Shown here: one piece after another, positions 4,200-11,625 of the stretch | Layout of the letters: each line of letters opens with the position of its first letter | Position numbering within the stretch: position 1 is the stretch's first letter | Assembly: GCA_002478275.1 (NCBI GenBank) | Contig: DLMY01000016.1 | Coordinates: 62,001-103,222, forward strand | Direction: 5' to 3' | Length of the DNA: 41,222 nucleotides | Origin: Actinobacteria bacterium UBA7524 | GTDB lineage: Bacteria; Actinomycetota; Coriobacteriia; Anaerosomatales; UBA912 | The notes under the pieces: model-generated | Seen by the model: only the letters and a program-made list of their open reading frames with translations | Databases searched by the model: none | Told to the model about the DNA's origin: nothing | Position numbers and translations under genes: made by a program

Positions 4200-4850
4200 A
4201 TGCAGGCACAAGAATGGACCGCAGAGTGGCCTGGTAACTCGCACGGTACGGAAGTCGCCCTTGTCAGGGCGGCTCAGGCAGGTGATCAGAACGCCTCAAG
4301 TCAACTCGTCCGCCGCTACAGAAGTCTCGTGCGCTGCAAGGCGCGTTCGTACTTCCTCGTCGGCGGGGATCGCGATGACGTGATCCAGGAGGGGATGATC
4401 GGCCTTTTCAAGGCGATCCGGGATTACGACCCGTCACGTCAGGCGAGCTTCCGGAGCTTCGCCGAGTTGTGCGTCACCCGCCAGATGATCACGGCCATCA
4501 AGACGGCCACGCGACGCAAGCACACCCCCCTGAACACCTACGTCTCGCTGAGTAGGCCTACTGTCACTGAGGATGAGGGAGAGAGGCTGCTTACAGATAT
4601 CCTTGCCGCCAAGGAGATCTGCGATCCTGCGGAGATCGTCGTCTCTGCGTGGGAGGGTGACAGGATACGCAAGGGTCTGTGTGACTCACTGTCCACGTTC
4701 GAGGCCCGGGTGCTCAGACTCTACGTGGACGGTTGTTCTTACCAGGAGATCGCGGAGCGCCTTGGTCGGCACGCAAAGTCCGTGGACAATGCGCTACAGC
4801 GGATCAAGCGTAAGGTCGAGATGCAGATCGATCGCTGCCGGGTCTGCTGA
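4200..4850 (+). CDS. sigH: RNA polymerase sigma factor, SigH family
   Basis: DVIQEGMIGLFKAIRDY, FAELCVTRQMITAIKTATRRKHTPLNTYVSL, KSVDNALQRIKRK match Bacillota SigH; conserved synteny. Confidence 0.9.
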   Translation: MQAQEWTAEWPGNSHGTEVALVRAAQAGDQNASSQLVRRYRSLVRCKARSYFLVGGDRDDVIQEGMIGLFKAIRDYDPSRQASFRSFAELCVTRQMITAIKTATRRKHTPLNTYVSLSRPTVTEDEGERLLTDILAAKEICDPAEIVVSAWEGDRIRKGLCDSLSTFEARVLRLYVDGCSYQEIAERLGRHAKSVDNALQRIKRKVEMQIDRCRVC

Positions 4851-4906
4851 TCTGGACAAGAGGCACTTCTCGCCGCCGCGCCGTGTGGCTACAATGGGTC
4901 GCACTG

Positions 4907-4981
4907 GCTGGCGTAGCTCAATGGCAGAGCAACGGTTTTGTAAACCGTAGGTTGCAGGTTCGACTCCTGTCGCCAGCTCCA
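4907..4981 (+). tRNA. tRNA-Thr(TGT)
   Basis: Acceptor GCTGGCG/CGCCAGC, anticodon arm ACGGT-TTTGTAA-ACCGT, GTTCGA T-loop, encoded CCA; TACAAT -10 candidate at 4890-4895. Confidence 0.96.
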
Positions 4982-4993
4982 AGTCATCACCAG

Positions 4994-5025
4994 AGAGCAC
5001 CTGGATATGAACCGGGTGCTCTTTT
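4994..5025 (+). terminator. Intrinsic terminator after tRNA-Thr (may also serve the convergent cyclase gene)
   Basis: 11-bp stem AGAGCACCTGG/CCGGGTGCTCT followed by T-tract. Confidence 0.75.
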
Positions 5026-5042
5026 CGTTCGTGTATCAGACC

Positions 5043-6581
5043 TCAGGTTCTTATCCCGGGTGCGAGTGGCGTCTGTCCGTCAGCCCAGAGTATCTCGACC
5101 ACCTCGGTCGACTCCGCGATGTTCTTGAGATCGAAGGGTCCGTGACTGAAGGTCTTGATGTCCGCGGGATCGCCCGTGTCTGCAACCAGACGGCTCGCGA
5201 AGATCTGACCGCCGTCTGCGAGGTTCATGATTCGCGCCGCTAGGTTCAGCGCCGTCCCGATGAACGGGCGACCGCCCTTGTCCAGCACGACCTCACCGTC
5301 GGCTATCCCGATGCGCACGATGATCTCGCGTTCGTCCGGGTGGATACTGTTGTGCTCCAGCAGGGTGCGCTGCATCTTCGCTGCTGCTGACACGGCCGCC
5401 GATCCCGACGGAAAGGCAGCGAGAAGTCCATCGCCACCAGTCGACTTACCGCTGCCCCCGAACTCCGTGATTATCGGAAGCAATAGGTCGCGGTGGCGCT
5501 GGATGGTCTTGGCTGAGGCGATACTGCCGTCTTCCTCGGTCATTTTCGAGAAGGACTTCATATCGGTCAGCATCACGACGGCGTGAGTCGTGTGCTTGTT
5601 CGCAAGCTGGTCTTCGGCAGTGGCAATGAGGCGCAACAACTCGTCCACGTCCGCGTCCTCCGTGGTCATGCTGCCCGGTCTGGTCGGTGCGACGGACGCC
5701 GGGACGGGTGCGAACAACGTCTCCGAAGCCGCCGCGAAGATCATGGCGACCGCCAGCGAACCCAGGGAGACCGGAACGAGAGTCGACGAGTCGATGCCGG
5801 CCTGCGGCAGGACCACCCCTGCGATCACGCCCATGACCGCCAGCGCTGCAACGCCGATGGATGTCGAGGCCAGTGCACCAGTGATCCGTCGATCGCGGCC
5901 GACCCAGAGCTTGATCGAGGCCGACACGGCCGCGGCTATCGCCCACAGTACAGGCTGGAGAACCAGGGGGATCCATGAACGAATCGAGGTGAACGTTGCG
6001 ATGAGTCTGCCCGGATCAAGGTCGGCGATGCCGGAGGCGATCCACTTGAAGGTCAGCAGATTGGCCGGTGACTCAGGAAACGAGATGAGCACCTCGTTTC
6101 CTGACGTGATGAGCGGTCCGAGGCGCTCCGCTCCCGTCAAGATGCCCGCTATCTGCAGAACGACACAGACGACGATCGCTGTGAGCGCGCCCTCCGATAG
6201 GCCCAGGAAGTAGCCGGCCAGGACCGGTACGGCCCAGAGCGGACCATAGGTCGCTCCGATGAAGGCCGCTGCGATGACAAGGAAGACGCGGGCCTTGTCT
6301 TGCGCAAGATACTGTAGGGACGCGAAGGCGATGATCAGGAACACGGCTCCCGTCAGTATGTCGGATGCGAGCAGTGGCAGCGACATGGCTATGATCGCCA
6401 GCACCACTCCCACCGCTGGAGAGAGAAACGTGGCTGCACCCACCGCCCCTGCAGCAATGTAAGCGGCGTACACGGGTCCGAAGGACATCGAGATGAGTCC
6501 CCACGCAACGAAGGCAGCCATCGCCACTGACCGGAGAGGGTCGAGTAGGCGCCCGTTCTTGCGCTGGATGCGTACGCTCAT
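5043..6581 (-). CDS. Polytopic membrane protein with C-terminal class III nucleotide (adenylate/guanylate-type) cyclase domain
   Basis: About 10 hydrophobic segments in the first ~290 aa; then VMLTDMKSFS, KSTGGDGLLAAF, VRIGIADGEV, IGTALNLAARI with both metal-binding Asp and the N...R catalytic pair. Confidence 0.88.
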   Translation of the reverse strand: MSVRIQRKNGRLLDPLRSVAMAAFVAWGLISMSFGPVYAAYIAAGAVGAATFLSPAVGVVLAIIAMSLPLLASDILTGAVFLIIAFASLQYLAQDKARVFLVIAAAFIGATYGPLWAVPVLAGYFLGLSEGALTAIVVCVVLQIAGILTGAERLGPLITSGNEVLISFPESPANLLTFKWIASGIADLDPGRLIATFTSIRSWIPLVLQPVLWAIAAAVSASIKLWVGRDRRITGALASTSIGVAALAVMGVIAGVVLPQAGIDSSTLVPVSLGSLAVAMIFAAASETLFAPVPASVAPTRPGSMTTEDADVDELLRLIATAEDQLANKHTTHAVVMLTDMKSFSKMTEEDGSIASAKTIQRHRDLLLPIITEFGGSGKSTGGDGLLAAFPSGSAAVSAAAKMQRTLLEHNSIHPDEREIIVRIGIADGEVVLDKGGRPFIGTALNLAARIMNLADGGQIFASRLVADTGDPADIKTFSHGPFDLKNIAESTEVVEILWADGQTPLAPGIRT

Positions 6582-6597
6582 GTTGATCTCCCTGCGC

Positions 6598-7323
6598 TCA
6601 TAGGTTGTTCGCCATTATCACGACGATGATCGATGCCCATCCGAGGCTGCAGATGACAAGGCCGGTCAGCGCCGCAAGCATGTGGCAGGCTCTCTCGTCG
6701 CCTTCACGCCAGAATGCATATGCGATACGAGGTAGGAATGGTACGGCCAGCCAAGCGGGATTCGCTGCAACGACCAGGACAAGCGCTGCTCCCCGTTCGA
6801 TCATTCCCGCCACACGCCACGAGTCAAAGGGCAGGATCTCGCGGCGGCAGGAGGTCGGCCCGAAGGCGTTTCCGACTTCGTGGACGATGATGGCGCCCAT
6901 GAGCGTGACGACCGCCAGTGCGCACAATGACAGTAGGTGCCAGGCAGTCAACTGCGGCAGGCCGAAAGGCACTAGCTCGACCGGAGGCAGCAGATTCTCG
7001 GCGATCCACACGATTCCGACCAGGGACAAGACGTGGAGGCCCTGGTCGATCGCCAACACGGAGATGCCACTCAGGGCGGTGATCCGGCTGCGGAGCCGGA
7101 TCGTCACCATCTCGATGACCAGATGGGCCGCCATCGACAGAATGACCACACCCCACAGGTACTGGATCTGAGCGATGACGATGATGACGGTACACAGTCC
7201 GATGATGGTCACGTGGGCCGCGAGCCCGCGCCACCCATTCCTCTTGGCTGTTACAAGCCATCCTGGCTGGAGTGCGAAGTCGCCGACCAGATGCCCGAGA
7301 TACAGAGCCAGCAAGAGCTCCAA
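6598..7323 (-). CDS. DUF3307-like integral membrane protein
   Basis: LGHLVGDFALQPGWLVTAK, LAAH, AAHLVIE, IDQGLH, GMIER pattern; TTG start at 7323 behind GGGGAGG. Confidence 0.75.
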   Translation of the reverse strand: MELLLALYLGHLVGDFALQPGWLVTAKRNGWRGLAAHVTIIGLCTVIIVIAQIQYLWGVVILSMAAHLVIEMVTIRLRSRITALSGISVLAIDQGLHVLSLVGIVWIAENLLPPVELVPFGLPQLTAWHLLSLCALAVVTLMGAIIVHEVGNAFGPTSCRREILPFDSWRVAGMIERGAALVLVVAANPAWLAVPFLPRIAYAFWREGDERACHMLAALTGLVICSLGWASIIVVIMANNL

Positions 7324-7476
7324 GTCCGCCTCCCCGTGAGGTCTTCTGCCGTCACTATTCTCGCATGAAGACATCGGACGCGTCTGCTATGCCGCGTGAT
7401 CGAGGGGATATAGAATGGAAAGGTCCGGTACCGTTTGACCTTGCTCACCTATGATTCGGAAGTGCGGGAGGCCCCA

Positions 7477-7890
7477 ATGGCACACGAGGAGTTCTTGGCC
7501 AGAGTACCCATCTTCTCCAATTGTACCGCCGAGGAGATCACGGCTATAGGTTCAGTGGCCCAGGAGAGCGGGTTCCAGTCGGGTCAGATCATAGTCACCC
7601 AAGGTACACCGGGGCAGGCGTTCTACTTGATTCTTGAAGGTCGAGTGGAGATAATCCGGGACGGTCAGTCACTGGGTGCGTTCGGCCCTGGGGATTTCTT
7701 CGGAGAGATGTCGCTCCTGGACCAGGCGCCGAGATCAGCTACGATCCGAGCACTGGAGCCTACCACGTGCCTGATGCTGTCGAGTTGGGATTTCAAGGCG
7801 CTACTCGAACGCATGCCGTCGATAGCGATCAAGCTGTTGGAGGTTCTCAGTCGCAGACTTCGCGTCGCGGACGAGCGCCTTGGCAGATAG
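7477..7890 (+). CDS. Stand-alone cyclic-nucleotide-binding domain protein (no HTH)
   Basis: IVTQGTPGQAFYLILEGRVEI and phosphate-binding cassette FFGEMSLLDQAPRSATIRA; ends after the C-helix (137 aa); GGAGG RBS. Confidence 0.9.
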   Translation: MAHEEFLARVPIFSNCTAEEITAIGSVAQESGFQSGQIIVTQGTPGQAFYLILEGRVEIIRDGQSLGAFGPGDFFGEMSLLDQAPRSATIRALEPTTCLMLSSWDFKALLERMPSIAIKLLEVLSRRLRVADERLGR

Positions 7891-7920
7891 TAGACGAGCT
7901 CCCGGAGGGGGACGCGTATC

Positions 7921-8541
7921 ATGACGACAGCTGCGGGAGCGGTCCTGCTACAGGCGGTTGCTGAACGGATCATCGTCCAGTTGTTGCGCAAGTCCGGTCA
8001 CACGGATGCGCGACCGGTGGCCTCACGTCCCGCAGGTGGGGCAGGGGTCGACCTCGTATACACGTCGTCCGGTCAGCGGACCAGGATAAAAGTGAAGCCC
8101 GATGCGTACTTCGGTGTGGACCCGGCCAAGGTCGGTGATCGCGCGCTCACGTTCTATCGGCCGGATGCCGGCCACTACGCGTTCGAGTCCATCTCCAACA
8201 ACGTCACCCGGGAACCGGGCTGGATATTCAACTCAGAGGCCGACTATCTCTATTACTACTACATCGCACTTTCGCAGAGCGAGAGTGAGGTCGCGGCTCT
8301 TCTGAGCGAGCCGGACGCGGTGTTCTTCGGCGAACTGAAGGTCGAGCGAGACCAGTTGCACGTGATTCTGATGAAGAACATCAGACGCTGGTTCGAGCAA
8401 CACTATGAGGAATACACACCCCGGCCGGTTACCATAGGAGATCATTCAGCATGGTACCGGCTGATTCCGCGTCCCGACATAGAGAAAGAGGTACAAGGCA
8501 TCAACATCGTGGCCTCCGTCTTTGCGGGGCTTGGGGACTGA
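7921..8541 (+). CDS. Hypothetical protein, probable PD-(D/E)xK (restriction-endonuclease-like) fold
   Basis: GGAGG RBS; helix-Glu (AERII), GVD, IKVKPD, YAFESIS...PGWIFNSEADYLYYY pattern; fold is inferred by eye. Confidence 0.55.
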   Translation: MTTAAGAVLLQAVAERIIVQLLRKSGHTDARPVASRPAGGAGVDLVYTSSGQRTRIKVKPDAYFGVDPAKVGDRALTFYRPDAGHYAFESISNNVTREPGWIFNSEADYLYYYYIALSQSESEVAALLSEPDAVFFGELKVERDQLHVILMKNIRRWFEQHYEEYTPRPVTIGDHSAWYRLIPRPDIEKEVQGINIVASVFAGLGD

Positions 8542-8639
8542 ATGTAGTCACCAGTAGACTGTCGGGGACCTGTCCCCGAAGTGCTGGGGCGCCATTTGGG
8601 TGTGAGTTCAGATAGGCACGCCCGGCACCGTTGTCGTCG

Positions 8640-8669
8640 TTGACACTCGCGAAAGCGATGCAGTACTAT
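8640..8669 (+). promoter_or_regulatory. Promoter for the tRNA-tuf transcript
   Basis: TTGACA(8640-8645)-18 bp-TACTAT(8664-8669), about 60 nt upstream of tRNA-Tyr. Confidence 0.65.
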
Positions 8670-8731
8670 CCGTATGCCTTTCGGCAGGTCTACAGCAACT
8701 TGAAAAGAGTACACAGCGGTCTTTTTTTTGT

Positions 8732-8816
8732 GGGGGTGTGCCCGAGTGGCTAAAGGGGACGGGCTGTAAACCCGTTGGCTACGCCTACCCAGGTTCGAAT
8801 CCTGGCGCCCCCACCA
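8732..8816 (+). tRNA. tRNA-Tyr(GTA)
   Basis: Acceptor GGGGGTG/CGCCCCC, anticodon arm ACGGG-CTGTAAA-CCCGT, long variable arm, CCA. Confidence 0.96.
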
Positions 8817-8856
8817 CACAGACATCGCTCGGAATGTCGGCGATTCAACGTCGAAT

Positions 8857-8932
<76 letters not shown>

Positions 8933-8968
8933 CCGATCACAGCCGCTGGCCGAGAGCTGGCGACAGAT

Positions 8969-9045
8969 GGCGGTGTAGCTCAGTTGGTCAGAGCACACGG
9001 TTCATACCCGTGGCGTCGCTGGTTCGAGTCCAGCCACCGCTACCA
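8969..9045 (+). tRNA. tRNA-Met(CAT), elongator type
   Basis: Acceptor GGCGGTG/CACCGCT, anticodon arm CACGG-TTCATAC-CCGTG, CCA; lacks the initiator C1:A72 mismatch and the 3 GC pairs. Confidence 0.9.
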
Positions 9046-9178
9046 TGACAATTCACGCGGGAACGTCTGCGTATGTTTGTTCGTCGGACGGTTTCGGTAA
9101 GAGAGGTTCAAGAGAGACGGGAGTGGGCCGGTCGTTGACGGGCCGGCCCGTCCGGAGTCTCGTGAGGAGGAGACTTAT

Positions 9179-10532
<1,354 letters not shown>

Positions 10533-10572
10533 CCGAGGCGACTCGTTTCGTTTCAAGACGGAGGGTAGAGAG

Positions 10573-10881
10573 TTGGCGAATCAGAAGATCAGGATCCGGC
10601 TGAAGGGCTATGACCACGAGATCGTGGATCAGTCGACCAAGATGATCGTGGATACGGCCCACAAGACCGGGGCGAAGGTATCGGGACCCATCCCGCTACC
10701 TACGGAGCGCAACCTGTACTGCGTCATCCGTTCGCCGCATGTCAACAAGGACAGCCGCGAGCACTTCGAGATGAAGACGCACAAGCGTCTCATCGACATA
10801 CTCGAGCCCACGCCCAAGACGGTCGACTCGCTGATGCGTCTCGATCTTCCGGCCGGAGTGGATATCGAGATCAAGCTGTAG
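10573..10881 (+). CDS. rpsJ: 30S ribosomal protein S10
   Basis: [29 protein letters not shown]. Confidence 0.98.
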
Positions 10882-11004
10882 GGAAGCGGTATCCGTCGAG
10901 GCGAGCATTCCTCGGCGTTGTAGGAATGAGCGGTCCGCTGGGAATCGCTGCGCAAGGGGCGCGGTGTCACAGGCCCAAGACCGCATGACGAACGGAGCAA
11001 GCGG

Positions 11005-11625
11005 ATGGTAACGACGATACTGGGACGGAAGCTGGGGATGACCCAGCTCTGGAGTGAGGACGACAACCTCATTCCGGTGACCGTCATCGAAGCAGGGCCT
11101 TGCGTTGTCAGTCAGGTGAAGACGGACAAGCGGGACGGCTACAGCGCTGCCCAGATAGCCTTCGGTGAGATCAAGGAACAGCGGGTCAACAAGCCGATGC
11201 GCGGGCATTTCGCGAAGGCGGGTGTAGAGCCGAAGCGTCATCTCGCCGAGGTGCGCCTGGTCGAAGGTGATTCGGTGAAGCTTGGCGAGACATGGACGGT
11301 CGAGATGTTCGAGGCAGGTCAGATGGTCCACGTCACAGGAGTCAGTAAGGGTAAGGGCTTCGCCGGTGTCATGAAGAGGCACAACTTCCGCGGTGGACCT
11401 GGTGGGCACGGTTCGCACTTCCATAGGCAGCCTGGCTCGATCGGCATGTGCGCCACTCCGGCACGCGTGCTGAAGGGCACGAAGATGGCAGGTCACATGG
11501 GTGACGAGACCGTAACGGTCCGCAACCTCGAGGTCGTCAAGGTCGACGTCGAGCAGAACCTGATCATCGTGAAAGGCGCTGTCCCGGGTGGCAAGGGCGC
11601 GCTTCTGACCATCCGCGCGGCGTAA
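11005..11625 (+). CDS. rplC: 50S ribosomal protein L3
   Basis: [29 protein letters not shown]. Confidence 0.98.

What the first reader, a model, noticed from the sequence alone, without database searches (positions are those of the whole stretch)
5043..8541. Four-gene cyclase / cNMP-sensor / nuclease-like cassette inside the tRNA cluster: candidate cyclic-nucleotide signalling or defence system
Seen: a divergent cassette, [membrane class III cyclase + DUF3307-like TM protein] versus [stand-alone cNMP-binding protein + PD-(D/E)xK-like protein], sits between tRNA-Thr(TGT) and tRNA-Tyr(GTA) in otherwise pure housekeeping DNA. Known: these two tRNAs are adjacent in the thrU-tyrU-...-tuf cluster of many bacteria; tRNA loci collect accessory genes; Pycsar pairs a class III cyclase with a cNMP-binding domain fused to a TM or TIR effector. 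Inference: this is a split version with signal maker, free sensor and two candidate effectors (membrane protein, nuclease) as separate proteins, and a membrane-embedded trigger. I do not recognise this architecture from a described system.
Basis: partly seen in the sequence, partly recalled or inferred. Interest (0 to 1): 0.8.

Follow-up and report, generated by a model that had tools for sequence, protein, structure and literature searches.

The report
Lineage-conserved cyclic-nucleotide signalling gene cluster
The four genes are real, but they are an old, vertically inherited cyclic-nucleotide signalling locus of one order of uncultured Coriobacteriia, not a mobile anti-phage system. Only the cyclase and the small nucleotide-binding protein are evolutionarily tied to each other.

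Summary
All four ORFs and their domain calls hold. They are an 8-TM class III cyclase, a DUF3307 membrane protein, a 137-aa single-domain cNMP-binding protein (CNB) and a 206-aa protein (P206) with a PD-(D/E)xK nuclease-like fold. They lie between tRNA-Thr(TGT) and tRNA-Tyr(GTA).

The defence-island reading is not supported. The cassette sits at the same site, between the same core genes, in every related locus examined. The cyclase was found in 85 of 117 sampled genomes of the same order. It was found in 0 of 133 from other orders of the class, and its membrane domain in 0 of 396 elsewhere in the phylum. The cyclase tree shares 9 of 19 splits with the tree of the flanking core genes. GC content is flat, and P206 has no phage or plasmid match.

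The four genes are not an obligate set. An intact CNB never occurs without the cyclase, but DUF3307 and P206 are lost, or kept alone, independently and repeatedly.

This is the only class III cyclase found in the genome. A CRP-type regulator elsewhere stays 62-89% identical in 29 of 30 cyclase-bearing relatives that have it. It drops to 44-59% in the same-family relatives that lack the cyclase.

Best reading: a physiological cNMP module whose receptors are a CRP-type factor and a CRP-like protein lacking the DNA-binding domain. The partner of that protein and the role of P206 remain unknown.

The parts
4907..4981 (+). tRNA-Thr(TGT), left boundary of the conserved site
   Evidence: ARAGORN and Rfam at 73.4 bits. 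The same tRNA flanks the cassette in the related loci.
5043..6581 (-). Membrane class III nucleotidyl cyclase, 512 aa. About 8 TM helices (residues 19-293) with a loop of about 55 aa (150-203), then the catalytic domain (about 330-490).
   Evidence: PF00211 above its cut-off. It aligns to the solved cyclases 3mr7, Ma1120 and Rv1900c. D340, K379, D384, R423, D434, N446 and R450 are invariant in 25 of 25 orthologues covering that region. It is the only PF00211 match in the 83%-complete genome.
6598..7323 (-). DUF3307 polytopic membrane protein, 241 aa from TTG 7323 (ORF list gives 7374). It lies 17 nt upstream of the cyclase on the same strand.
   Evidence: PF11750, E 2.7e-12. SD and start are; an identical 241-aa entry is. 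Invariant D15, Q19, K27, H37, H67, D93, Q94, H97, R170, E176, R177 and R199. The AF2 model has pLDDT 94.3 and nine helices.
7358..7386 (+). Window's variant (TTCTCG-N17-CGTCTG) of a conserved, directional two-part element upstream of CNB. It is a candidate promoter of the CNB(-P206) transcript.
   Evidence: TTGTGN-N15-18-CG[TC]CT[GTA] occurs in 28 of 69 unique CNB upstream regions on the forward strand and 0 of 69 on the reverse. Shuffles give a mean of 0.03. The window copy does not match the strict pattern.
7477..7890 (+). Stand-alone cNMP-binding protein (CNB), 137 aa: one CNB domain plus a C-terminal helix and no other domain.
   Evidence: PF00027, E 6.5e-24. The cassette FFGEMSLLD..PRSAT is invariant or nearly so, with mean column identity 82% over 25 sequences. 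It is 34% identical to the genome's CRP-type regulator across the domain and C-helix.
7921..8541 (+). P206, 206 aa, with a PD-(D/E)xK nuclease-like fold. Its family is restricted to this lineage at the sequence level. It starts 30 nt after the CNB stop and has its own SD.
   Evidence: No Pfam, NCBIfam, PADLOC or PHROG match. Over 70 unique sequences, D44 is kept in 69, K57 in 68, K59 in 68, D61 in 70 and E89 in 69.
8640..8669 (+). Promoter-like site (TTGACA-18-TACTAT) in front of the tRNA-Tyr/Thr/Met-tuf cluster. It marks the right-hand end of the cassette.
   Evidence: Consensus scan, 10 of 12 matches. This is a pattern match only.
8732..8816 (+). tRNA-Tyr(GTA), right boundary of the conserved site
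   Evidence: ARAGORN and Rfam.

Best explanation
This is a chromosomal, vertically inherited second-messenger module of one order of mostly uncultured Coriobacteriia.

Inferred mechanism:
- An 8-TM receptor-type class III cyclase, the only one found in this genome, makes a 3',5'-cyclic nucleotide, most likely cAMP.
- It does so in response to a membrane or extracytoplasmic cue sensed by its lineage-specific TM domain. The co-transcribed DUF3307 membrane protein may assist where it is present.
- The nucleotide is read by at least two receptors: a CRP-type transcription factor encoded elsewhere, and the divergently transcribed 137-aa CNB protein.
- CNB looks like a CRP protein without its DNA-binding domain, so it must act through protein contacts or as a nucleotide buffer.
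- P206, a PD-(D/E)xK-fold protein just downstream of CNB, and DUF3307 are long-standing neighbours but not obligate parts of the module.

Shown here: the domains, the invariant catalytic and ligand-binding residues, the fixed site, congruence with core genes, the pattern of co-loss, and the tracking of the CRP-type factor with the cyclase.

Inferred only: the identity of the nucleotide, the input signal, the operon structure, CNB's partner, and any activity of P206 or DUF3307.
For: 1. Fixed site. In the 28 loci fetched around relatives, the order is rlmB-like, YacP, sigma factor, tRNA-Thr(tgt), [cassette], tRNA-Tyr, Thr, Met, tuf. The 68 named-record loci found with P206 show the same order wherever the contig reaches.

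2. Range. The cyclase is in 34 of 41 relatives. In a sample of the class it is in 85 of 117 genomes of families f1-f25 and 0 of 133 of families f26-f32. Its TM domain is in 4 of 401 genomes of the phylum, all from the own order.

3. Vertical descent. For 22 non-redundant loci, the cyclase tree and the flank tree (sigma + rlmB-like + YacP) share 9 of 19 bipartitions. Five hundred label permutations gave a mean of 0.16 and a maximum of 3. GC is 0.59-0.64 across the cassette, like its flanks.

4. Purifying selection. Median identity to the window is 81.9% for CNB, against 73.5% for the sigma factor, 56.5% for rlmB-like, 55.0% for P206, 46.1% for the cyclase and 41.0% for DUF3307. Catalytic residues are invariant in 25 of 25. 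The CNB phosphate-binding cassette is invariant or nearly so.

5. Coupling of cyclase and CNB. All 32 of 32 genomes with CNB (E<=1e-20) also have the cyclase. Where the cyclase is gone, CNB is absent or in fragments (L012, L026, L040, L089).

6. General role. The genome has one PF00211 match and three PF00027 proteins, two of them CNB+HTH_Crp_2 regulators. One of these keeps the FGEMSL..PRSA cassette. It is 62-89% identical in 29 of 30 cyclase-bearing relatives that have it (G030 is 54%). It is only 44, 45 and 59% identical in the same-family genomes G001, G004 and G002, which lack the cyclase. It was not found in the cyclase-less G011 and G038.

7. No defence context. PADLOC matches only the generic domains, and the flanks are core genes.
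Against: - No expression or biochemical data exist. No RNA run holds the locus.
- The nucleotide cannot be assigned. The candidate specificity Lys379 sits one position off the canonical register, and the Asp position falls in a 2-residue insertion relative to 3mr7.
- PADLOC's PycC profiles score the catalytic domain slightly higher than Pfam's general model does (32.5 against 23.9 bits).
- The cyclase persists without CNB in L077, L080, L098/L099 and L101, so CNB is dispensable for it.
- The CRP-type factor was not found in G009, which has the cyclase. G030, which also has the cyclase, has a factor only 54% identical. The tracking is therefore imperfect.
- CNB is far more conserved than a simple ligand binder needs to be, and its partner is unidentified.
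- P206 has fold relatives among tailed-phage proteins, so a phage origin, and a defence-like role for that gene, is not excluded.
- Vertical inheritance does not in itself exclude an immune function.
- Genome samples are incomplete MAGs. The 68-locus set is anchored on P206 and over-represents it.
Confidence: 0.62

Rival explanations
1. One reading: a split Pycsar-like defence system. The membrane cyclase is triggered by infection, free CNB senses the nucleotide, and CNB then switches on P206 (nuclease) and/or DUF3307 (membrane effector), leading to abortive infection.
For: PADLOC PycC profiles match the catalytic domain (best E 1.3e-8), and PycTIR/effector profiles match CNB (E 3.3e-20). P206 has a nuclease-like fold with fold relatives in tailed phages. 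CNB and P206 are 30 nt apart on one strand. The N-half of DUF3307 matches a phage membrane-protein family, phrog_2470, E 2.4e-16.
Against: - The PADLOC matches cover only the generic domains: PycTIR profile positions 32-140 of 288. There is nothing for P206 or DUF3307.
- The cassette has a fixed core site and a phylogeny congruent with its flanks.
- CNB at 82% median identity is the opposite of the fast evolution reported for immune cNMP systems (preprint 10.64898/2026.08.12.744502, section 5 read).
- P206 stands intact without cyclase and CNB in G001, G002, G004, G039, L054, L107 and L113. Cyclase plus CNB stand without P206 in G006, G016, G025, G030 and G035.
- The canonical acid of the (D/E)xK motif is an invariant Lys.
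- P206 has no match in phages or plasmids.
Confidence: 0.07
2. CNB is a regulatory subunit or product buffer of the cyclase itself. It binds the catalytic domain, or sequesters the nucleotide, to give feedback control. The pair is then a self-contained signal generator, and the real outputs lie elsewhere.
For: Cyclase and CNB are the only strictly co-occurring pair and are divergently transcribed from one short intergenic region. A PADLOC profile of a cyclase with an N-terminal CNB domain (PDLC00734) matches both proteins, so fused forms of the two domains exist. The catalytic half of the cyclase is much better conserved than the TM half: 59-74% identity on C-terminal fragments against 30-47% on N-terminal ones.
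Against: No interaction test between CNB and the cyclase was run. The cyclase persists without CNB in several lineages. A buffer would not need 82% identity across its whole surface, including the C-helix.
Confidence: 0.13
3. CNB is a 'headless CRP'. It pairs through its C-helix with the full-length CRP-type regulator, or competes with it for nucleotide, and so tunes CRP-dependent transcription.
For: CNB aligns with the genome's CRP-type factor over the whole CNB domain and C-helix, including SRRLR (34% identity, E 2e-23). It also aligns with the N-domain and C-helix of the solved CRP-family protein 4ev0 (query residues 10-135). Both proteins are highly conserved where the cyclase is present.
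Against: This rests on sequence resemblance only. The best PDB scores are to PKG/PKA-type CNB domains. No heterodimer test was run. The factor is kept in lineages that have lost CNB.
Confidence: 0.1

Closest known systems
Membrane-anchored class III adenylyl cyclases feeding CRP-family regulators, as in actinobacterial cAMP signalling. The comparison to that physiology is from general knowledge. The solved relatives matched here are 3mr7, Ma1120 (4wp3) and Rv1900c/LipJ (1ybt).
   Same: It has a C-terminal PF00211 domain with two metal-binding Asp and the Asn/Arg pair, on a polytopic membrane anchor. A CRP-type CNB+HTH regulator is in the same genome.
   Different: The 8-TM N-terminal domain has no Pfam family and was found only in this order. 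The register of the specificity residues is atypical. The gene is paired with a single-domain CNB protein and often with a DUF3307 gene.
Pycsar / Pucsar anti-phage systems: a cNMP cyclase plus a CNB-TIR or 3TM effector
   Same: A class III-type cyclase gene lies next to a gene for a CNB-domain protein. The PADLOC PycC and PycTIR profiles match at domain level.
   Different: The CNB protein has no effector domain. The cyclase is a membrane receptor type. The genes are divergent, fixed at a core site, slowly evolving and vertically inherited. The preprint describes immune cyclases as fast-evolving and linked to CNBD-TIR or pJV1-spdB3 3TM effectors (abstract and section 5 read).
CRP/FNR family regulators
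   Same: The CNB domain plus C-helix is 34% identical to the genome's own CRP-type factor, and the phosphate-binding cassette is canonical.
   Different: It has no helix-turn-helix domain. The protein ends after the C-helix at 137 aa.
Small PD-(D/E)xK nucleases: BisI-family NhoI/Eco15I, I-Ssp6803I, Hjc and RecU. Also uncharacterised tailed-phage proteins such as Phormidium phage Pf-WMP3 gp05.
   Same: P206 shares the core fold (Z 8.8-6.9; BFVD Foldseek E down to 1.4e-6). NhoI and Eco15I_Ntd are catalytic PD-(D/E)XK domains (PMC11347163, passages read).
   Different: No sequence family matches. The motif reads D44...K57-x-K59, with Lys where the acid is expected, and E89 and D61 are invariant nearby in sequence. 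The C-terminal half has extra strands. The family is confined to this lineage at the sequence level.

Membership tests
Pycsar/Pucsar defence system | The effector protein carries a CNB domain fused to a TIR or TM effector domain | tested here: not met
   CNB is 137 aa with PF00027 only. PADLOC PycTIR matches only profile positions 32-140 of 288.
Pycsar/Pucsar defence system | Patchy, mobile distribution and fast evolution typical of immune cNMP cyclases | tested here: not met
   Same core site in all loci examined. The cyclase and flank trees share 9 of 19 splits against a permutation maximum of 3. CNB median identity is 82%. The criterion is taken from section 5 of the preprint.
Pycsar/Pucsar defence system | The cyclase makes cCMP/cUMP (Pycsar) or cGMP (Pucsar) on infection | not testable with these tools
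   The specificity residues cannot be aligned with confidence.
Class III nucleotidyl cyclase (PF00211) | The domain scores above the curated cut-off | tested here: met
   23.9 bits and 26.8 bits, against a cut-off of 21.9.
Class III nucleotidyl cyclase (PF00211) | Two metal-binding Asp and the transition-state Asn/Arg | tested here: met
   D340 and D384 align with the Asp of the solved cyclases. N446 and R450 lie in the G-x-x-x-N-x-x-x-R stretch. All are invariant in 25 of 25. The role names are from general knowledge of the family.
Class III nucleotidyl cyclase (PF00211) | Lys/Asp pair that specifies adenine | tested here: inconclusive
   K379 is invariant but one position off the aligned Lys of 3mr7 and Ma1120. 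The Asp position falls in a 2-residue insertion. D434 is an invariant candidate.
cNMP-binding domain (PF00027) | Domain match plus the phosphate-binding cassette (G-E ... R-S/T-A) | tested here: met
   E 6.5e-24. G76, R86, S87 and T89 are invariant, and E77 and A88 are kept in at least 90% of 25 sequences.
CRP/FNR transcription factor | C-terminal helix-turn-helix DNA-binding domain | tested here: not met
   No HTH family matches. The protein ends after the C-helix. The genome's two true members carry HTH_Crp_2.
PD-(D/E)xK nuclease superfamily | Restriction-endonuclease-like core fold | tested here: met
   The 17 hits with Z>=5 are PD-(D/E)xK-type nucleases or resolvases. BFVD hits include NOV_C and PD(D/E)XK-labelled proteins. 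Caveat: Z 8-9 is only just above the tool's stated background of 7-8.
PD-(D/E)xK nuclease superfamily | Catalytic D ... (D/E)-x-K signature | tested here: inconclusive
   D44 starts one strand, and K57-V-K59 lies in the next strand of the hairpin. Lys is invariant where the acid is expected. E89 on the following strand could substitute for it. The assignment is by secondary-structure register, not by a residue-level structural alignment.
DUF3307 (PF11750) | Domain above the curated cut-off | tested here: met
   47.2 bits against a cut-off of 23. The nearest ESM Atlas clusters are 95-99% PF11750.

The most novel reading that the evidence does not exclude
The stand-alone CNB protein, a CRP-like protein lacking its DNA-binding domain, is a new kind of bacterial cNMP output. 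On binding the nucleotide it controls a partner protein by direct contact. The partner could be the neighbouring phage-type PD-(D/E)xK protein P206, which would make the locus a domesticated, chromosomally fixed nucleotide-gated nuclease. It could instead be the CRP-type regulator or another core protein. Its 82% identity across an entire order would then reflect a conserved interaction surface.
Probability: 0.12. Interest if true: 0.7.

Novelty: new variant of a known kind. Interest (0 to 1): 0.36.

Why it matters
It shows that a cyclase next to a CNB protein and a nuclease-like gene beside tRNAs need not be a defence island. Site conservation and co-loss patterns separate the two readings. 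What remains of real interest:
- An order-specific 8-TM sensor domain on the only cyclase found in these small subsurface genomes.
- A single-domain cNMP receptor better conserved than the neighbouring sigma factor, with no known partner.
- An orphan phage-type PD-(D/E)xK protein fixed upstream of the tRNA-tuf cluster.

Cultured members of the OPB41/Anaerosomatales lineage exist (PMC9686372, abstract and passages seen). One related locus record is titled Anaerosomatales. I did not confirm the name of this window's order, but if it is that lineage the questions can be tested at the bench.

Tried and rejected
- **Complex prediction, P206 (A1) with CNB (A2) as partner:** verdict 'no answer', scores 0.01 and 0.00, controls not run. 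This is evidence neither for nor against binding. The job was accepted only, after many queue-full answers.
- **RNA evidence:** no RNA holder listed. One DNA run holds the stretch and may be its source.
- **DUF3307 fold:** the model is confident, but VIA-align gives a best Z of 8.2 among helical bundles and Foldseek a best E of 0.11. No fold assignment follows.
- **Word-based searches:** searches for the cyclase TM domain and for DUF3307 returned only 6 and 3 proteins. They are uninformative about range.
- **Identity-to-window rank correlations** between cassette and flank genes: uninformative, because even two flank genes do not correlate (rho 0.12). Replaced by the tree comparison.
- **Strict upstream motif in the own genome:** 3 matches against 3 in the control, so no sign of a regulon.
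- **CRP-type palindrome in the divergent intergenic region:** none seen by eye. Not tested formally.
- **P0148, an apparent CNB-P206 fusion**: on reading it, a frameshifted low-quality sequence. Rejected as a fusion.
- **Rfam scan of 4800-9200:** only the four tRNAs.
- **Earlier-findings look-ups:** nothing returned.
- **Literature:** 'DUF3307' gives 1 paper, on a jumbo phage (listing only). 'cyclic nucleotide-binding domain' + 'stand-alone' + 'adenylate cyclase' + 'bacteria' gives 1 unrelated plant paper. The Anaerosomatales description paper has 0 occurrences of cyclase, cAMP or CRP. I found nothing in print on this cassette in those searches. Supplements of the Pucsar preprint (Table S1, tree tips) could not be seen and might include relatives of this cyclase.

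Full report
**What is there**

The region holds four ORFs. They lie between tRNA-Thr(tgt) 4907-4981 and tRNA-Tyr(gta) 8732-8816.

- On the minus strand is a 512-aa protein, 5043-6581. It has about eight hydrophobic segments in residues 19-293 and a C-terminal PF00211 domain (23.9 bits, cut-off 21.9; 26.8 bits).
- Seventeen bases upstream on the same strand is a DUF3307 protein (PF11750, E 2.7e-12).
- On the plus strand is a protein with one PF00027 domain (E 6.5e-24) and nothing else.
- Thirty bases after its stop is a 206-aa protein (P206) with no Pfam, NCBIfam, PADLOC or PHROG match.

Two starts should be moved. CNB most likely begins at ATG 7477, giving 137 aa; GGGAGG lies upstream and conservation starts there. 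DUF3307 most likely begins at TTG 7323, giving 241 aa; GGGGAGG lies upstream, and the public collection holds an identical 241-aa protein.

The surroundings are core genes: cysS, an rlmB-like methyltransferase, a YacP NYN protein, a sigma factor, tuf, the ribosomal protein operons, secY, adk, map and rpoA. GC is 0.59-0.64 through the cassette, like its flanks.

**The proteins**

*Cyclase.* The catalytic domain aligns with solved class III cyclases: 3mr7 (E 1.1e-14), Ma1120 and Rv1900c. D340, K379, D384, R423, D434, N446 and R450 are invariant in 25 of 25 orthologues that cover the region. The two Asp and the Asn/Arg sit where the family's metal and transition-state residues align.

The Lys is one position off, and the Asp that would specify adenine falls in a two-residue insertion. 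I therefore cannot name the nucleotide. Calling it cAMP is an inference from what such cyclases usually make.

*CNB.* It keeps the phosphate-binding cassette FFGEMSLLD..PRSAT, invariant or nearly so in 25 sequences, with a mean column identity of 82%. It is 34% identical to a CRP-type regulator of the same genome across the whole domain and the C-helix. It ends where that regulator's DNA-binding domain would begin.

*P206.* It folds with confidence (pLDDT 92.5). The 17 VIA-align hits with Z of 5 or more are PD-(D/E)xK nucleases and resolvases: NhoI 8.8, I-Ssp6803I 8.6, Eco15I N-domain 8.2, Hjc 7.4 and 7.1, RecU 6.9.
- NhoI and Eco15I_Ntd are catalytic domains of BisI-family enzymes (PMC11347163, passages read).
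- Foldseek against the PDB gives the same kinds of protein at weaker scores (best E 4.8e-3).
- Against predicted viral structures there are 18 hits at E<=1e-3, mostly uncharacterised tailed-phage proteins.
- The language-model atlas gives unnamed clusters with phage members, and NOV_C, PDDEXK_14, DpnI and PDDEXK_16 as the nearest named families. This is a lead only.

The motif is unusual. D44 is followed by K57-V-K59, with Lys where the acid is expected. D61 and E89 are also nearly invariant (70 unique sequences). I cannot say from this whether it cuts nucleic acid.

*DUF3307.* It has a cluster of invariant polar residues (D15, Q19, K27, H37, H67, D93, Q94, H97, R170, E176, R177, R199) and a confident nine-helix model. 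It has no convincing fold match. Its first 108 residues match a phage membrane-protein family (phrog_2470).

**Distribution**

This is the decisive part.

*Forty-one relatives* (own genome included, about 25 families of one order):
- P206 is found in 31.
- CNB is found in 32 at E<=1e-20.
- The cyclase is found in 34.

*Gene order.* I fetched the DNA around these matches and annotated it with tblastn and ARAGORN. Everywhere the order is rlmB-like, YacP, sigma factor, tRNA-Thr(tgt), cassette, tRNA-Tyr, tRNA-Thr(ggt), tRNA-Met, tuf.

A scan of one genome per species with the P206 alignment gave 68 loci. Most records are titled as uncultured Coriobacteriia, Actinomycetota or Actinomycetes MAGs, a few carry other taxon labels, one is titled 'Anaerosomatales bacterium' and one 'Coriobacteriaceae bacterium EMTCatB1'. 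All 68 show P206 beside these same neighbours.

*Range.*
- In a sample of 251 genomes of the class, the cyclase is in 85 of 117 genomes of families f1-f25 and in 0 of 133 of families f26-f32.
- In 401 genomes of the phylum, its TM domain is found in 4, all of the own order.
- P206 has 187 relatives in 5.8 billion proteins. Those that carry a name are called hypothetical, and those that carry a taxon label come from this lineage. It has 52 representative clusters in 1.84 billion.
- P206 has no match in 50,697 phage or 72,556 plasmid records.

*Vertical descent.* For 22 non-redundant loci, the cyclase tree and the tree of the three flanking core genes share 9 of 19 bipartitions. Five hundred label permutations gave a mean of 0.16 and at most 3. 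The cassette is therefore old and inherited with the chromosome.

**The four genes are not one obligate unit**

I took the 35 non-redundant loci that show both tRNAs and all three flank genes. This is a mixed sample, partly anchored on P206. Presence means at least 60% of the query is covered. The counts are:

| Architecture | Loci |
|---|---|
| All four genes | 11 |
| Cyclase + CNB + P206 | 9 |
| P206 alone | 5 |
| Cyclase + CNB | 3 |
| Cyclase + DUF3307 + P206 | 3 |
| Cyclase + DUF3307 + CNB | 2 |
| 'CNB + P206' (L070) | 1 |
| Empty site (L116) | 1 |

L070 in fact keeps the catalytic half of the cyclase. In L116 the two tRNAs lie 164 bp apart.

On the flank tree the minimum number of gains or losses is 5 for the cyclase, 7 for DUF3307, 4 for CNB and 4 for P206 (midpoint root, Fitch count). 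The L070 call inflates the cyclase figure by at most one.

In the 68-locus set, DUF3307 accompanies the cyclase in 40 of the 63 rows that show the cyclase.

An intact CNB never occurs without the cyclase: 32 of 32. Where the cyclase is gone, CNB is gone too (L012, L026, L040, L054, L107, L113) or survives as fragments (L089).

The reverse does not hold. L077, L080 and L101 have the cyclase but no CNB, and L098/L099 keep only a remnant.

P206 is intact and conserved in genomes that lack both the cyclase and CNB. This includes three of the four same-family relatives (G001, G002, G004). It is missing from five genomes that keep cyclase and CNB (G006, G016, G025, G030, G035). So CNB depends on the cyclase, and P206 depends on neither.

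**What the cyclase feeds**

The own genome is 83% complete. It has one PF00211 match and three PF00027 proteins: CNB and two CNB+HTH_Crp_2 regulators. One of the regulators keeps the FGEMSL..PRSA cassette.

That regulator is found in 38 of 41 relatives (own genome included):
- It is 62-89% identical in 29 of 30 cyclase-bearing relatives that have it (G030 is 54%).
- It is only 44, 45 and 59% identical in G001, G004 and G002. These belong to the window's own family but lack the cyclase.
- It was not found in the cyclase-less G011 and G038.
- The exceptions are G009 (cyclase present, factor not found) and G030 (cyclase present, 54%).

This tracking suggests the CRP-type factor is a main receiver of the cyclase's product.

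**Mechanism proposed**

The locus is a physiological second-messenger module: a membrane sensor cyclase whose product is read by a CRP-type factor and by the small CNB protein.

CNB's conservation is striking: median 81.9% against 73.5% for the sigma factor next door. That argues it touches a conserved partner, which I could not identify.

Three sub-hypotheses remain open: feedback on the cyclase, pairing with the CRP-type factor, or control of P206. The only interaction test I could run (CNB with P206) gave no answer. It counts neither way.

**Comparison with known systems**

Pycsar and the recently described Pucsar pair a cyclase with a CNB-TIR or 3TM effector, and their cyclases evolve fast (preprint 10.64898/2026.08.12.744502, abstract and section 5 read). 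Here the CNB protein has no effector domain. PADLOC matches stop at the generic domains. The genes are slow-evolving and fixed at a core site. It is not a member of those systems.

It works like ordinary cAMP-CRP signalling with an added single-domain receptor. In the searches I ran I found nothing in print on this cassette.

**Verdict**

The finding is real and correctly described. What remains is a new variant of a known kind, of moderate interest because of:
- the order-specific sensor domain;
- the very conserved single-domain cNMP receptor without a known partner;
- the orphan phage-type PD-(D/E)xK protein that persists at the site even when the signalling genes are lost.

Noticed in passing
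window 7358-7386; L011-L114 upstream of CNB: A directional two-part element, aTTGTGc-N16-CGTCTGC, lies 44-112 nt upstream of the CNB start. It occurs in 28 of 69 unique upstream regions and 0 of 69 on the other strand; shuffles give 0.03. The CGTC-type second half recalls ECF-type -10 boxes; that resemblance is recalled, not tested. The strict pattern is not enriched in the own genome, 3 matches against 3 in the control.
   Followed up: partly
L033:1387-2082 (G000 contig 45) and relatives: A CRP-type regulator is 62-89% identical in 29 of 30 cyclase-bearing relatives that have it (G030 is 54%). It is only 44-59% identical in same-family genomes that have lost the cyclase, and it was not found in two cyclase-less genomes. 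This looks like relaxed or changed selection after loss of the signal.
   Followed up: partly
L117:5869-7335 (G020): At the same site between the two tRNAs, one relative has a 488-aa ORF. Its N-terminal part is 30% identical to the cyclase's TM domain. It has no Pfam cyclase domain and no CNB or P206 beside it. The sensor domain may have been reused with a different C-terminus.
   Followed up: partly
L116:2746-3069 (G038): An empty site: tRNA-Thr(tgt) is followed by tRNA-Tyr after 164 bp, with none of the four genes.
   Followed up: yes
window 9800-10060: Part of tuf reads as X/N (withheld bases), which splits the ORF in the listing. The low GC of 0.438 in the 9501-10000 bin is an effect of this.
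   Followed up: no
window 10532-11005 versus L011-L042: In relatives tuf is followed by tRNA-Trp(cca). In the window ARAGORN finds no tRNA-Trp, and the ribosomal L3/L4/L2 genes follow tuf. The gene order downstream of tuf therefore differs.
   Followed up: no
L024 (G040:C6): All four cassette genes, and tuf and the sigma factor too, appear as several shifted pieces. This looks like assembly frameshifts rather than real pseudogenes.
   Followed up: no
window 7921-8541: P206's fold has significant matches among uncharacterised proteins of tailed phages: Phormidium phage Pf-WMP3 gp05, Anabaena phage A-4L and Pectobacterium phage Wc4, with E 1e-6 to 1e-4. There is no sequence match in phage records. 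An old phage origin is possible.
   Followed up: partly
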